Source: Octopus vulgaris (taxonomy: Eukaryota). From it: DNA of 64,000 nucleotides. The DNA is taken from assembly GCA_951406725.2 (NCBI GenBank), contig OX597817.1:171802001-171866000 (forward strand), written 5' to 3'. Made by a program: the position numbers and the translations under genes. The notes below the pieces were generated by a model, which searched no databases, was not told where the DNA came from, and saw only the letters and a program-made list of their open reading frames with translations. Below are positions 8,933 to 62,916 of this stretch, piece after piece; position 1 is the stretch's first letter, and the number at the start of each line of letters is the position of its first letter.

Positions 8933-9240
8933 GTAGGTCCCGGGTTGAGTCGGGGTTAACCACAGTAAATAAGGTACTCAATACATATAGAGTAAATTAA
9001 TTTATTTTATAGAAGGAGCTTCTACAGGACTAGAACTGTTTCATTCAAATGAAATCATCAGGAAGCTTGGTGTCAAGAATAGTTTTGGCATTTATACATT
9101 TAGGCAGATTTAAAGGGGTGGTGGGGGACTTTTGGGGGTAGGCATGGCGCAAACTGTCTTTCTTAGGGGAGTGGTCAAAAAGAATCAGTGATAAAGTAGA
9201 TAAATGAATAAATAGAATAATAGAATAGAAGACTATCGCT
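8933..9240 (-). mobile_element. Penelope-like element terminal (pLTR) fragment inserted in (TA)n
   Basis: About 300-bp insert between two (TA)n runs; contains a hammerhead fold followed by AATAAA on the minus strand. Confidence 0.6.
9017..9067 (-). ncRNA. Type-I hammerhead ribozyme motif (C3-G8 core)
   Basis: Minus: AGCUUC-CUGAUGA-UUUCAUUUGAAU-GAAA-CAG(uucuaguc)CU-GUA-GAAGCU. Stem I 6 bp, stem III 4 bp, GUA triplet; stem II closes on a non-canonical U.U. Confidence 0.65.
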
Positions 9241-9400
9241 TATATATATATATATATATATATATATATATATATGTATATACATGCATACATGCATATA
9301 TGTATTTATATGTACATGAATACATGCAGGTGTGATGCTCTGTGTGTGCGTAGTGTTTGTGTGTGTATAAACGCATGCATATATACATATATATATATAT

Positions 9401-9626
9401 CTTTACTACCCACAAGGGGCTAAACACAGAGGGGACAAACAAGGACAGACAAACGGATTAAGTCGATAACATCGACCCCCAGTGCATAACTGGTACTTAA
9501 TTTATTGACCCCGAAAGGATGAAAGGCAAAGTCGACCTCGGCAGAATTTGAACTCAGAACGTAACAGCAGATGAAATACGGCTACGCATTTTGTCCGGCG
9601 TGCTAACGATTCTGCCAGCTCGCTGC
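9401..9626 (-). mobile_element. tRNA-derived SINE family B (central GCCTTTCATCCTTTCGGGGTC domain, MetaSINE-like)
   Basis: Nearly identical to 33140-33372 and reverse complement of 61550-61786; GAGTTCAAATT B box. Confidence 0.85.
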
Positions 9627-10764
9627 ATATATACATATATATATGTATATATATATATATATATATACATATATATGTATATACATTTGATGCCATTGTC
9701 ATCATTATAGATATAAGGAACATGCCACAAATTTCATCATCATCCTCATCATCATCATCATCATCATCATCATCATCATCATCATCACTAACAACATTTG
9801 CACTCTTCCAGAATCATGTGATTTTTGCGAGACCACAACCTATACCATTGTAACCACCACCACTACTACCACCATCACAACACCACCACCACCACCACCA
9901 CATCTACCACTGCCACCTTGTGTGACCAGTGTAAATTTATGTTAGATGACTATCTCTACCTTTACATAAGTGTTCATTTATTTCTCTCTCTCTCTGTCTC
10001 TCTCTCTTCTCTGTCTGACTCCCCCTCTCTCTGTCTCTCTCCCTCTCTCTCTCTCTCTCTCTCAATCTCTCTCATTCTGTGTATGACTCTTTGTCTGCCT
10101 CAGACCAGCTCTCTTTCCCGCCCTCCTTCTGGGTAGATCTCTCATCCTGTGTATGTCTCTTTGTCTCCTTTTCCTTTTCTTTCTCTGTCAGTTTGCTTCT
10201 CTCTCTCTTTCTCTCTCTCTCTCTCTCTCTTTCACACAAGCATACACTTTCTCTTTTGTTCTCACTCTCTCCACATGTCTATCATTTCTCTTAGTATCTC
10301 AAACTCCCTCCTTTTTTCTCTTGTTATCTGCCCCCACCCCACCTATCTGTGCATATTTCATTTCTTATGTCACTATGTATTTCTTTCACTTCCTCTTCTC
10401 TCTCTCTCTCTTTCTTTCACTTTCAAAACCCATCTTTCATTTTCCATGTATCCCATTCTCTTCTTCTTCTTCTTCTTCTTCTTCTTCTCTCTCACACATT
10501 CTCTGTCTCCTTCTGTTTTCCCTTTTCAATTCTCCCCATGTCTCTCTCTTTTACCTTCTCAGCACTCTTCTCCTTCTAATTACTTTATGCTCCTTCTCAC
10601 TTCTTCCCTGTTACATAAATGGGTATCTGTCTGTGTATGTATGCACGTATGTGTCTGTATTAACTACATACAAATATATATATATGCATGCAAATATACA
10701 TACTATATATATGTTGTGGAACACGACCATAAGCCGTTCGATTCACTTCAACATTTAAGTTTAA

Positions 10765-10815
10765 TTTGTCAAAATATTTTCGTCGCTTTAAGACCGCGAC
10801 CTGTTCACTGACAAA
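10765..10815 (-). ncRNA. Minimal type-I hammerhead variant (G3-C8), mirror copy
   Basis: Minus: UUUGUCA-GUGAACA-G-GUCGC(ggucuuaaa)GCGAC-GAAA-AUAU-U-U-UGACAAA. Confidence 0.6.
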
Positions 10816-10845
10816 ATTCCGTGCTGCTTCTCGGATGCACGGATT

Positions 10846-10897
10846 TTTGTCAGTGAACAGGTCGCGGATTTTAGAGCGACGAAAATATTTTGACAAA
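10846..10897 (+). ncRNA. Minimal type-I hammerhead variant (G3-C8)
   Basis: Stem I TTTGTCA/TGACAAA; core GTGAACA 10853-10859; stem II GTCGC/GCGAC; GAAA 10881-10884; palindromic stem III; UUU triplet. Confidence 0.6.
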
Positions 10898-59593: not shown

Positions 59594-59815
59594 TCATCAT
59601 CATTTAACATCCGTTGTCCATGCTGGCATGGGTTGGACGGTTTGACTGAAAACTGGTAAGCTGGGGAGCTGCACCAGGTTCCAGTCTGATTTGGCAGGGT
59701 TTCTACAGTTGGATGCCCTTCCTAATGCCAACTACTCCAAGAGTGTAGTGGGTGCTTTTCACGTGCCACCAGCATGGGTGCCAGGAATGCGACACTGGCA
59801 TCAACCATGACTATG
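59594..59815 (-). mobile_element. Family D copy
   Basis: Same motifs as the 56575 copy. Confidence 0.85.
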
Positions 59816-59886
59816 ATTTCACTTACAAGATAGTATGTATGTGTGTGTGTGTATGTGTGTGTGTTTGTAATATATAGATATATCTA

Positions 59887-60298
59887 GGTGCAGGAGTGGC
59901 TGTGTGGTAAGTAGCTTGTTTACCAACCACATGATTCTGGGTTCAGTCCCACTGCGTGGCACTTTGGGCAAGTGTCTTCTGCTATAGCCTCAGGCTGACC
60001 AATGCCTTGTGAGTGGATTTGGTAGACGGAAACTGAAAGAAGTCCGTCGTGTATACGTATATATATATATGCGTGTGTGTGTGTTTGTGTGTCTGTGTTT
60101 GTCCCCCTAGCATTGCTTGACAACCGATGCTGGTGTGTTTATGTCCCCATAACTTAGCAGTTCGGCAAAAGTGACCGATAGAATAAGTACTGGGCTTACA
60201 AACGAATAAGTCCCGGGGTTGAGTTGCTTGATTAAAGGCGGTGTGCTCCAGCATGGCCGCAGTCAAATGACTGAAACAAGTAAAAGAGTAAAAGAGTA
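59887..60298 (+). mobile_element. SINE family A, full length
   Basis: Head, microsatellite and (AAAAGAGT)n tail. Confidence 0.9.
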
Positions 60299-61264
60299 TT
60301 TCTATATATTGAATCACATTTAAATAGTTGGGTAGTTTTATTCTTCAATCAAATTCTTTTGTTGTTTTGTGTTGCTGTTGTGAATAGTGTTGTTGTTGTT
60401 GGTGTTGTTGGTGGTGGTGATGGTGGTGATGGTGGTAGTGGTGGTGGTATGAAATTGGTTAACTTCAGGATATAATCTTTGGTCCAGTTTGAACATTATT
60501 ACGAAATATGTTTTCCTTGTAAAGTGGAAAGGCTGGCAAAAGGGTATTTGAAGAGATCAGTAGGTTCCATGAGCCAGAAATAATCTTTGTTGAACTCCGA
60601 GGAATATTTTTTTCTTTTTTTATAATTTATATAAACAAAGAACTTTTCTTTATTTTTTTTTTTTATTAAAATGGAAAATTCTATCATCACTATCTTTTAT
60701 TAAAAAAAAGCATCAATCATCAACCTAGTTATCACCACTAGCAGCACTGTCAACTTCATTATCGCTTTTAATTAACCTGATCATCATCATCATCGTTGTC
60801 ATCATCATCATCATCATTTCACCATTTGTTATTTAATTAACAAGTTGGTTAACAAGGAAAAAATCAGATCAAGTCAGATGAAAGAAACCAACTTAATCAC
60901 TTAAATCTGGTTCTCTTGTAATAATGTTTCCAAGCACCTTCTTTGAGGTCTCTTTTTACACTGAGAGAGAGAGAAAGAGAGAGAAAGAGAGAGAGTACCT
61001 TAATTTATGACACACTTATAGAAACGTTTGTAATCATCCCCAACAGTACAACTATAAATATTAATTCAATAATAGCACCGTTAAATTATATTTCTTTTTA
61101 TATTGTTGTTATTTGTTGTCTTCTTGTCAAATTTGAAAACAAACTTTTAAAATAACTTCCCCGACCATGATAGATAAAATTCTTAAATTCTGTTTTGCCT
61201 ACCATGTTTGGCTAAAATTTGGCACTGATCTAAGAAAGTGCCATGATTATTATCATCATTACCT

Positions 61265-61786
61265 AAGGTGGCAAGGTGCAGAATCATTAGCACGGTGGGA
61301 AAAATGCTTAGTGGTATTTCATCCATCTTGGCATTCTGAGCTCAAATTCTGCCATGGTCAACTTTTCCCTTCATCCTTTTGGGGGTTGATGAAATAAGTA
61401 CCAGGGAAGCACTAGGGTCGATGTAATCAACTAGTCCCCTCCCCCAAAATTTCAGGCTTTGTGTCCAGTGCTGGATTAACCCTTAAGCAAAATAAGCATG
61501 TACTTAGGGCATCAAGAGAAGGGTAGGCACCACAGAAATTGTAAATTCAAGGCAGCGAGCTGGCAGAAACGTTAGCATGCCAGGCAAAATGCTTAGTGGT
61601 ATTTCGTCTGCCGTTATGTTCTGAGTTCAAATTCCACCAAGGTCAACTTTGCCTTTCATCCTTTTGAGGTCAATAAATTAAGTACCAGTTATGCACTGGG
61701 ATCGATATAAGCGACTAAATAGCTTTGTCTGTCCTTGTTTGTCCTCTCTGTGTGTAGCCCCTTGTGGGCAGTAAAGAAATAAGAAA
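61265..61786 (+). mobile_element. Two SINE B copies separated by a hAT-like terminal fragment (about 61466-61545)
   Basis: Family B motifs at 61265-61465 and 61550-61786; CAGTGCTGGATTAACC between them. Confidence 0.75.
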
Positions 61787-62670
61787 TTGTATATATCTAT
61801 GCATACATTCATGTTCGTCCCCCACTTCCACTTGACAACTAGTGTTGGTTTGTTTACGTCCCTGCAATTCAATGGCTTGGCATAAGAGACTCATAAATTA
61901 AGTACCGGGATTAAAATGAAAAATAAGTACTTCTCTTGATTCATTTGACAAAAACACCTTTCATGGCCATGCTCCAGCATGGCCACAGTCAAATGACTGT
62001 TACAAGCAAAAGATGAAAAGATATTCCACATTCTACTATTTGAAATGAAGACAGGAGACATGTGAAAATGTGGTGCTTGATATCGAAGAAGAAGGACGGC
62101 TACAGCTGGGAAGCTTTCAATCATAGGGTTGACTAAACAACAACTTGATTAAATTCAATACTTGATCAATATCAATACTTGATCAATATTTGATAAGCCA
62201 GAAGAAATGTTTACAGAGTTACGTTGACATTGCATGGACGTCAAGAAACTGCCTATTACAGTATGCGTACCTATATGTATGAATGTATTTATCTAAATGT
62301 GTATGTGTATATGTATATACATATGACCTTTTGAAAGTATGCATGTATATATGCATACATACATGCATACATACATACATACATACATACATGCATACAT
62401 ATGTAGGCGTAGGAGTGGCCGTGTGATAAGTTGCTTGCTTATGAACCACATGGTTCTGGGTGCAGTCCCACTGCGTGGCACCTTGGGCGAGTGTCTTCTA
62501 CTATAGCCTCGGGCCGACCAAAGCCTTGTGAGTGGATTTGGTAGACGGAAACTGAAAGAAGACCGTCATATATATTTATATATATATATATATATATGTG
62601 TATATATATATATATATATAAATATATATATATATATATGTATATATATATATATATATATATATATATA

Positions 62671-62916
62671 ACATTATTAGTGAATTGAAGAAATGGAGCT
62701 GAACGCAGATTGAACAGAAATCGTTTTATTCCAACGGATTTCCTATTTTCTTCCTGAAGAGAAAGACACAATATGGTCCCATTATTCCATCGGATTTTGG
62801 TAATTTGTGCCTTTCGAAACACGTGTAGAATGAAATAAAACGATTTCTGTTCAAAAAAACGGTTAAACTTTTGATTAATCTACTACAAGATTATTCATCT
62901 TTCTATTTCACATAAT
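62671..62916 (+). mobile_element. Penelope-like terminal fragment in (TA)n with a short inverted 5' copy
   Basis: 21-bp IR 62710-62730 / 62834-62854 around a canonical hammerhead; AATAAA at 62834. Confidence 0.7.
62744..62837 (+). ncRNA. Type-I hammerhead ribozyme, canonical core
   Basis: Stem I TATTTTCTTC/GAATGAAATA; CUGAAGA 62754-62760; stem II GAAAGACACAA/TTGTGCCTTTC; GAAA 62816-62819; stem III ACACGTGT palindrome; GUA triplet ending 62827. Confidence 0.85.

What the first reader, a model, noticed from the sequence alone, without database searches (positions are those of the whole stretch)
8933..62916. Several unrelated microsatellite-targeting, fold-back mini-elements carry hammerhead cores whose 3-8 pair co-varies (C-G, G-C, U-A)
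Seen: four sequence-unrelated inserts (8933-9240, 10712-11041, 37030-37316, 62671-62916) share the layout stem I, 7-nt core, stem II, GAAA, short stem III (palindromic in three), NUH, stem I', then an A-rich or AATAAA-like signal. The cores read CUGAUGA, GUGAACA, UUGAAAA and CUGAAGA, so U4-G5-A6 and A9 are fixed while positions 3 and 8 stay complementary. Known: C3-G8 is a tertiary Watson-Crick pair in hammerheads, and Penelope-like elements carry minimal, often dimer-acting type-I hammerheads in terminal repeats that can be inverted. Inference: this genome hosts a diverse set of non-autonomous PLE or retrozyme-like families under selection for cleavage, including variants that CUGANGA-only searches miss. 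Three of the four sit in (TA)n tracts.
Basis: partly seen in the sequence, partly recalled or inferred. Interest (0 to 1): 0.85.

Follow-up and report, generated by a model that had tools for sequence, protein, structure and literature searches.

The report
Swapped-core hammerheads in Penelope retroelement stubs
The four inserts are short end-pieces of four protein-coding Penelope-like jumping genes, each carrying a predicted self-cutting RNA (hammerhead) whose two paired core letters differ between families but stay complementary, and the pieces were likely copied from the capped, uncut front end of the element's RNA.

Summary
Observation confirmed; interpretation needs correcting. All four hammerhead layouts are present, and each insert belongs to a family with over 1,000 candidate sites. 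They are not independent non-autonomous elements or retrozymes. They are pLTR stubs of ORF-bearing Penelope-like elements (PLEs): two Hydra-clade (C3-G8) and two related Neptune-like (G3-C8, U3-A8). The fold-backs are the known PLE inverted copy with a one-sided tail and 10-13 bp TSD.

Covariation is real. Three sister families in this genome carry C3-G8, G3-C8 and U3-A8 in homologous hammerheads. Nine of nine metagenomic relatives detected with a 3/8-blind descriptor pair Watson-Crick, one as A3-U8.

Added here: stubs of three families stop at a C|A start 13-94 nt upstream of the core and mostly carry an extra G (45/61, 77/100, 62/100). This is the signature of a copied RNA cap, so their templates were likely capped and uncleaved. 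No excess of ends at the cleavage site; cleavage is untested.

U3-A8 and PLE hammerheads are published; I found natural G3-C8 and A3-U8 in no paper I could search. The scan noted the G3-C8 motif before on other pieces of this genome.

The parts
8933..9240 (-). Family A stub: pLTR end of a Hydra-clade PLE (one-sided tail about 8933-8981)
   Evidence: 1582 candidates, 94-98% identical top copies; inverted arms stop at query 260 and follow an ORF end with CxCX5C, CxxC and CxH, hammerhead 2.5-2.7 kb after the stop
9017..9067 (-). Hammerhead A: C3-G8, U10.1-U11.1, GUA; stems I-III form in the MFE fold
   Evidence: U-U at 10.1/11.1 is common in the published Hydra-clade table
10728..10832 (-). Family B inverted arm; begins with the extra G at 10832 before the inferred start; outer end lost or replaced (10712-10727)
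10765..10815 (-). Hammerhead B, inverted copy (G3-C8)
   Evidence: z -3.0
10833..11043 (+). Family B forward arm: 5' UTR, hammerhead, first 30 codons of a Neptune-like ORF (ATG 10952), tail about 10978-11043
   Evidence: 1355 candidates; ORF link; translation
10846..10897 (+). Hammerhead B: G3-C8, bulged G, 5-bp stem II, palindromic AAUAUU, predicted cut after U10890
   Evidence: z -3.15; G 31/31 and C 32/32 in tail-selected arms
37030..37165 (-). Family C inverted arm with a decayed U3-A8 hammerhead (N3 at 37157)
37170..37376 (+). Family C forward arm: U3-A8 hammerhead (37177-37222, local 9-nt duplication), ATG 37293, tail about 37317-37376
   Evidence: 2885 candidates; ORF upstream in 9 of 12 ORF-selected loci; N-terminus homologous to sister family E
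62661..62733 (-). Family D short inverted arm
62726..62916 (+). Family D forward arm, truncated 27 nt before the core, with a 138-nt internal deletion; hammerhead 62751-62830 (C3-G8, long stem II, palindromic ACACGUGU, GUA at 62827)
   Evidence: 99-100% identical to a 3624-bp tandem unit with an 899-aa open frame

Best explanation
The four inserts are terminal-repeat stubs of four ORF-bearing Penelope-like retroelements, and their hammerhead motifs keep positions 3 and 8 complementary across related families; the stubs were likely made when the element's RT copied only the capped, uncleaved 5' end of its own RNA. Steps. (1) Shown: each family has ORF - 3' spacer - hammerhead - tail, and in B and C the tail is the first 30 or so codons of the next ORF. 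(2) Inferred: RNA starts at a C|A 23 nt (B), 13 nt (C) or 94 nt (D) before the core and is capped. (3) From PMC11167929, extrapolated: the protein nicks both strands of AT-rich DNA and starts RT at two internal sites, which gives the one-sided tail. (4) Inferred: the cDNAs run to the cap, leave an extra G, and either join the target or join each other head to head, giving solo stubs and fold-backs with a 10-13 bp TSD. (5) Inferred: the hammerhead is a slow, dimer- or protein-assisted cutter; its active fold needs a 3-8 pair of any Watson-Crick type, and it would act on a minority of RNAs or at a later step.
For: ORF links: D, 899-aa open frame in a 3624-bp tandem, core +596 from the stop; B, G3-C8 hammerhead about 1 kb after the ORF in 28 of 30 ORF-selected loci, open frames to 1025 aa; C, 9 of 12; A, 3 of 4 extended loci. 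Sister family E (1312-aa ORF) has C3-G8 in a homologous hammerhead; B, C, E form one clade (100/99). Metagenome: 12 of 21 loci examined, 9 distinct families, all WC (5 C-G, 3 U-A, 1 A-U); 0 hits in 200 shuffles. At least five separate double changes on the tree. Core varies less than the adjacent UTR: B 2/412 vs 45/1792, C 11/344 vs 137/1853. 5' pile-up in tail-selected copies: B 22/30, C 14/30. Extra G: D 45/61 vs 3/12 at same-filter control junctions (p 0.002), B 77 of first 100 of 458, C 62 of first 100 of 964. Letters before the G vary (12 and 11 triplets in 20 loci each) and only 3/20 and 2/20 G's come from the partner arm. TSD of 10-13 bp in 7 of the 10 B fold-backs not flagged as (TA)n-flanked, of 18 scorable.
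Against: No cleavage assay. No significant excess of ends at the predicted cut site (D 11 loci vs 3 and 9; B 14-20 vs 12). The transcript start is inferred from DNA only. In B the boundary also looks like a splice acceptor (CTAAC, pyrimidines, CAG). The pile-up is weak in D (4 of 30 forward arms at +498 to +502) and was not found for A. The descriptor was relaxed after I had seen the sequences; 9 of 21 loci gave no hit. C's stem I is 3 bp, and E has C at position 9. In MFE folds D's stem I does not form and B's intended dimer is not the lowest-energy one.
Confidence: 0.72

Rival explanations
1. The short units are non-autonomous elements or retrozymes that replicate on their own as fold-backs or ribozyme-made circles.
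For: Most B and C copies are short and share both ends. A 2026 preprint derives animal retrozymes from PLE pLTRs.
Against: Fold-back centres differ between copies. The same subfamily letters occur in ORF-bearing copies. Copies are dispersed, not head-to-tail arrays. 5' ends lie upstream of the core with an extra G, not at the cut site.
Confidence: 0.07
2. Same elements, but the sharp 5' end is a splice acceptor or an RT stall at the hammerhead stem or the upstream microsatellite, and the G is a short exon end or a repair filler.
For: Acceptor-like sequence in B. D. virilis Penelope has an intron ending at helix I. Filler letters are common at the junctions.
Against: The G replaces C at a C|A in three families at different distances from the core. 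No shared letters before the G. C has no pyrimidine tract there. Control junctions are not G-rich.
Confidence: 0.13
3. The variant motifs are non-catalytic: the fold is kept as an RNA dimerisation or protein-binding element that pairs two templates, and the 3-8 pair is structural.
For: Hammerhead mutants do not affect PAc insertion in vitro and no RNA ends map to its cut site. Palindromic stem III pairs intermolecularly in cofolds of C and D. The arms of one insertion carry different loop alleles in 4 of 20 fold-backs.
Against: The 3-8 pair forms in the catalytically active conformation, G12 and the cleavage triplet are conserved, and the C3G/G8C double mutant of a PLE hammerhead partly regains cleavage.
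Confidence: 0.08

Closest known systems
[quoted passage not shown]
   Same: Bulge between 9 and 10.1, G10.1-C11.1, short stem I, palindromic stem III, mostly solo or inverted pairs from truncated PLEs, and a U3-A8 variant in Schistosoma.
   Different: G3-C8 and A3-U8 are not mentioned in the parts read; here three pairings occur in three sister families of one genome.
Hydra-clade PLEs (Craig et al. 2021, PMC8557442; section 11, passages, supplement part 2 read)
   Same: A and D: C-terminal GIY-YIG without CCHH, DKT, CxxC and CxH, (TA)n targets, canonical C3-G8 hammerhead; Hydra-1_Obim is already listed from an octopus.
   Different: D has RWL for RWK, no CxCX5C linker and a longer unit (3.6 kb); A has a 2.5-kb simple-repeat spacer.
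Neptune/Nematis-type PLEs (linker CX2-5CxxC, CCHH endonuclease)
   Same: B, C, E: CX3-4CxxC linker, GIY-YIG with CCHH-like residues, YVDD RT.
   Different: Neptune versus Nematis is assigned from recall; no reference sequences were aligned.
PAc Poseidon in vitro (Frangieh et al. 2024, PMC11167929; parts 1-2 of 4 and passages read)
   Same: Two internal RT starts in the ORF beginning give the tail; both strands extended; uncleaved RNA is the main substrate; C3G/G8C partly rescues cleavage.
   Different: G3-C8 is a laboratory mutant there and natural here; cap-derived G and genomic stubs ending at the transcript start are not described in the parts read.
Adineta Penelope inverted pLTRs (Arkhipova et al. 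2013, PMC3846280; passages read)
   Same: Inverted pLTR, one-sided tail, 8-10 bp TSD, pLTR includes the first codons, Inr-like start.
   Different: That paper favours self-priming on an antisense template and leaves a sense template open; the extra G and mixed-allele arms here point to capped sense RNA.
Animal non-LTR retrozymes (bioRxiv 10.64898/2026.07.22.740005; part 1 of 5 read)
   Same: Type-I hammerhead derived from PLE pLTRs.
   Different: Defined as tandem arrays; these copies are dispersed, single or inverted, and continuous with an ORF-bearing parent.

Membership tests
Penelope-like element (EN+) | Single ORF with RT and GIY-YIG endonuclease | tested here: met
   D 899 aa, B open frames to 1025 aa, E 1312 aa; C and A seen as ORF fragments only. 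Motifs read by eye; Pfam gave no hit for D.
Penelope-like element (EN+) | pLTR in tandem or inverted arrangement with one-sided tail | tested here: met
Penelope-like element (EN+) | Short TSD, AT-rich or (TA)n target | tested here: met
   10-13 bp TSD in 7 B fold-backs, 18 scorable of 29; (TA)n counts
Hydra clade (A, D) | DKT, RWK, CxCX5C linker, no CCHH, CxxC and CxH | tested here: met
   D: DKT, RWL, CNLC, CPH, linker absent; A: CxCX5C, CDLC, CMH, N-terminus not recovered. No tree with reference Hydra proteins.
Neptune clade (B, C, E) | CX2-5CxxC linker plus placement with reference Neptune RTs | tested here: inconclusive
   Linker present; placement against Nematis not tested
Type-I minimal hammerhead | Core U4 G5 A6 N7, A9, G12-A14, A15.1-U16.1, H17 with stems I and II | tested here: met
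Type-I minimal hammerhead | Watson-Crick pair between 3 and 8 | tested here: met
   All four pairings seen across families; no non-WC sense-strand hit
Type-I minimal hammerhead | Site-specific self-cleavage after H17 | not testable with these tools
   The indirect junction test was inconclusive
Non-LTR retrozyme | Non-coding head-to-tail tandem units each with a hammerhead | tested here: not met
   Copies are dispersed single or head-to-head stubs; the tandems found contain the ORF
MITE (DNA transposon) | Fixed symmetrical terminal inverted repeats and fixed internal structure | tested here: not met
   One-sided tail and variable centre

The most novel reading that the evidence does not exclude
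Neptune-like PLEs have used all four Watson-Crick pairs at the hammerhead 3-8 position, including a young, high-copy family with natural G3-C8; and thousands of genomic stubs are the PLE counterpart of strong-stop cDNA, copied from capped, uncleaved sense RNA, sometimes from two RNA molecules in one insertion, so the genome itself maps PLE transcript starts and shows which template PLEs use.
Probability: 0.55. Interest if true: 0.62.

Novelty: new variant of a known kind. Interest (0 to 1): 0.45.

Why it matters
Natural G3-C8 and A3-U8 cores would complete the natural covariation of the one tertiary Watson-Crick pair in the hammerhead core and show that CUGANGA and UUGANAA descriptors miss whole families. 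The B/C/E trio gives matched natural constructs for the open question of what PLE hammerheads do. The extra-G signature bears on a second open point, the PLE template (antisense self-priming or sense RNA, PMC3846280), and can be scored in any genome with young PLEs. Against a higher score: PLE hammerheads, U3-A8, inverted stubs, tails and octopus Hydra elements are all published, and no cleavage is shown.

Tried and rejected
Rfam gave only microsatellite-driven miRNA hits among the rows shown. Pfam and PDB sequence searches with the D protein gave nothing useful. A fifth window motif (13966-14013, U3/G8) is single-copy and is treated as chance. Excess of 5' ends at the cut site: not significant, and 6 of the B rows are explained by stem-I microhomology. 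RNA evidence: no RNA holder listed on record; only assembled contigs of guessed-RNA runs, which cannot show starts or ends. Viral contigs: no relatives. The first conservation count included pattern-selected loci and was replaced by tail-selected loci only. A regular expression for the C hammerhead failed and was corrected. R-scape and a covariance model were not run. Literature: 'hammerhead' with G3-C8 (1 paper, a lab variant), G3C8 (0), U3-A8 (1), C3G/G8C (2 listed), Penelope pLTR capped start (6 listed, none on cap-G by title or abstract start). Lunse et al. 2017 and Przybilski and Hammann 2007 were not available, and the figure supplements of Cervera 2014 were not seen; any of them may already list natural G3-C8.
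Full report
Observation. The window lies in a 2.8-Gb animal genome; a protein named from Octopus vulgaris matches one of its families at 91-97%, so it is likely an octopus. The four motifs are present as described. I call the families A (8933), B (10712), C (37030) and D (62661). 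Genome searches returned 1582, 1355, 2885 and 1219 candidates, of which 40 each were scored.

Parents. D is young: four copies lie in tandem 3624 bp apart with an 899-aa open frame, the hammerhead core 596 nt after the stop and about 330 nt before the next ORF. The window copy is a short inverted arm plus a truncated forward arm with a 138-nt deletion. D has DKT, RWL, CxxC and CxH; the ORF fragments tied to A have the CxCX5C linker, CxxC and CxH. These are the Hydra-clade marks of Craig et al. 2021, whose table already lists an octopus Hydra element with a CUGAAGA hammerhead and (TA)n targets. In 3 of 4 extended A loci an inverted arm runs from ORF to hammerhead; the distance is 2.5-2.7 kb in the two measured. 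For B and C, copies reaching further upstream pass through a simple-repeat spacer into a GIY-YIG ORF end with a CX3-4CxxC linker. B has many near-identical ORF copies and open frames to 1025 aa; 28 of 30 ORF-selected loci gave the G3-C8 hammerhead downstream. C is older; 9 of 12 ORF-selected loci carry its U3-A8 motif. B and C proteins are 49% identical over 191 aa, so they are related, contrary to the finding.

Fold-backs. In B and C the inverted arm is 55-65 nt shorter at the outer end (a one-sided tail), the centre differs between copies, and a 10-13 bp TSD is seen in 7 of the 10 B fold-backs not flagged as (TA)n-flanked; 18 of 29 loci were scorable. The tail is the start of the ORF: MAYKHLPR... 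in B, MTLPRHNRICFN... in C, the latter homologous to MTIPKYNNICFN... of a third family E. This is the published PLE layout (PMC3846280), explained in vitro by two internal RT start sites and extension of both target strands (PMC11167929). In D the tail ends about 35 nt before the first ATG.

Covariation. Family E (1312-aa ORF) has C3-G8 in a hammerhead with the same bulged G and homologous stem II (GUCAC/GUGAC; B GUCGC/GCGAC; C GUUGC/GCAAC). B, C and E form one clade (100/99), with C sister to E. Outside the motif the three 5' regions do not align at the DNA level. A metagenome scan gave 30 related loci; 21 had the ORF end and were examined, 9 were left out because the match stopped earlier. 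A descriptor blind to 3 and 8 hit 12 of 21 loci on the sense strand, 9 distinct families: 5 C-G, 3 U-A, 1 A-U, none non-complementary; 200 shuffles gave none; one weak non-WC hit lay antisense. Two more (L308, L319) are U3-A8 by eye but fail the descriptor, and the C copy used also failed through a stem II mutation. The descriptor allowed one further core change and was set after I had read the sequences. On the tree, counting L308, U-A arises at least three times, G-C once and A-U once (the A-U row is a long branch); five chance matches at 1/4 give 0.001. Within families, using tail-selected copies and leaving out CpG, the core departs from the majority less than the neighbouring UTR: B 0.5% vs 2.5% (p 0.007), C 3.2% vs 7.4% (p 0.003); B's loop II varies at 19%, C's does not vary.

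Where the stubs begin. Copies picked by the tail alone stop just before the hammerhead: 22 of 30 in B at -13 to -28 (19 by BLAST, 3 read by eye where BLAST ran into the microsatellite), 14 of 30 in C at -9 to -13; only 2 of 30 in each go far upstream. D is more spread, with 4 of 30 at +498 to +502. Each boundary is the A of a C|A. Where a copy stops there, the letter before it is mostly G: D 45 of 61, B 77 of the first 100 of 458, C 62 of the first 100 of 964 (10 of those 62 in one small array) (counted by hand; C was excluded by the pattern). Same-filter control junctions in D had 3 G in 12 (p 0.002). In 20 D and 20 B loci chosen for the G, the preceding letters varied freely, several G's sat directly after (TA)n, and 3 and 2 could come from the partner arm. 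[quoted passage not shown] I infer that these stubs are cDNAs running from the internal RT start to the cap of an uncleaved sense RNA. The two arms share the loop II allele in 16 of 20 B fold-backs and differ in 4, which fits two templates in some events; later conversion is not excluded.

Cleavage. Ends exactly at the predicted cut site exist but are not clearly in excess (D 11 loci vs 3 and 9; B 14-20 vs 12). Folding supports stems I and II for B (z about -3) and for an intact C copy (z -2.6), less so for A, D and E. Activity rests on covariation and on published mutants: C3G/G8C partly restores cleavage in a PLE hammerhead, and the 3-8 pair belongs to the active fold (PMC3884650, passages).

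Against what is known. Natural U3-A8 was reported in 2011 (PMC3088659, section 8) and in Schistosoma PLEs in 2014. Dimer action and low rates are reviewed in PMC6765202 (section 11 part 2). I found no natural G3-C8 or A3-U8, but two key papers were not available. Two earlier notes of this scan describe the G3-C8 motif on other pieces of this genome; one says relatives use the other three pairings, and I read it before spotting the A3-U8 case. A look-up for the cap-G reading found no note holding all my words.

Verdict. Real, and mostly a known kind: PLE stubs with minimal hammerheads. The new parts are the natural G3-C8 and A3-U8 cores with sister-family covariation, and the extra-G evidence for capped, uncleaved templates. 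New variant of a known kind; interest 0.45.

Noticed in passing
L378:1263-5780 (G000 C17), tandem in L376: Family E: young Neptune-like PLE with a 1312-aa ORF bearing a long Asn-rich insert before the RT; its hammerhead has C at position 9.
   Followed up: partly
L306, L310, L326, L308 (metagenome): Further single core variants beside an intact 3-8 pair: G at 4, U at 15.1, A at 12, C at 9.
   Followed up: partly
L178:3868-5022, L179:5990-7062, L273:1927-4365, L180:2-1148: More PLE families (Hydra-like and others) sit next to the studied copies; L281, L341, L348, L352 carry other C3-G8 hammerheads and L356 a U3-A8 one.
   Followed up: no
window 15066-15365, 18126-18425, 33669-33968, 59892-60191, 62411-62710 and 36794-37007: An abundant dispersed repeat of about 300 nt (SINE-like by recall) with many copies in the window, next to inserts C and D.
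   Followed up: no
window 52103-52526 and 24998-25888: A 47-bp tandem array with near-identical units, and a CT-rich array of about 60-bp period.
   Followed up: no
G000 C2:15437303-15437658: At least ten head-to-tail 37-bp repeats of the family C start and core 5' half.
   Followed up: no
window 13966-14013 (-): Hammerhead-like layout with U3/G8; single copy in the genome, taken as chance.
   Followed up: yes
L274:7885-7906: Branch-point, pyrimidine tract and CAG just at the family B 5' boundary; a possible splice acceptor for read-through transcripts.
   Followed up: partly
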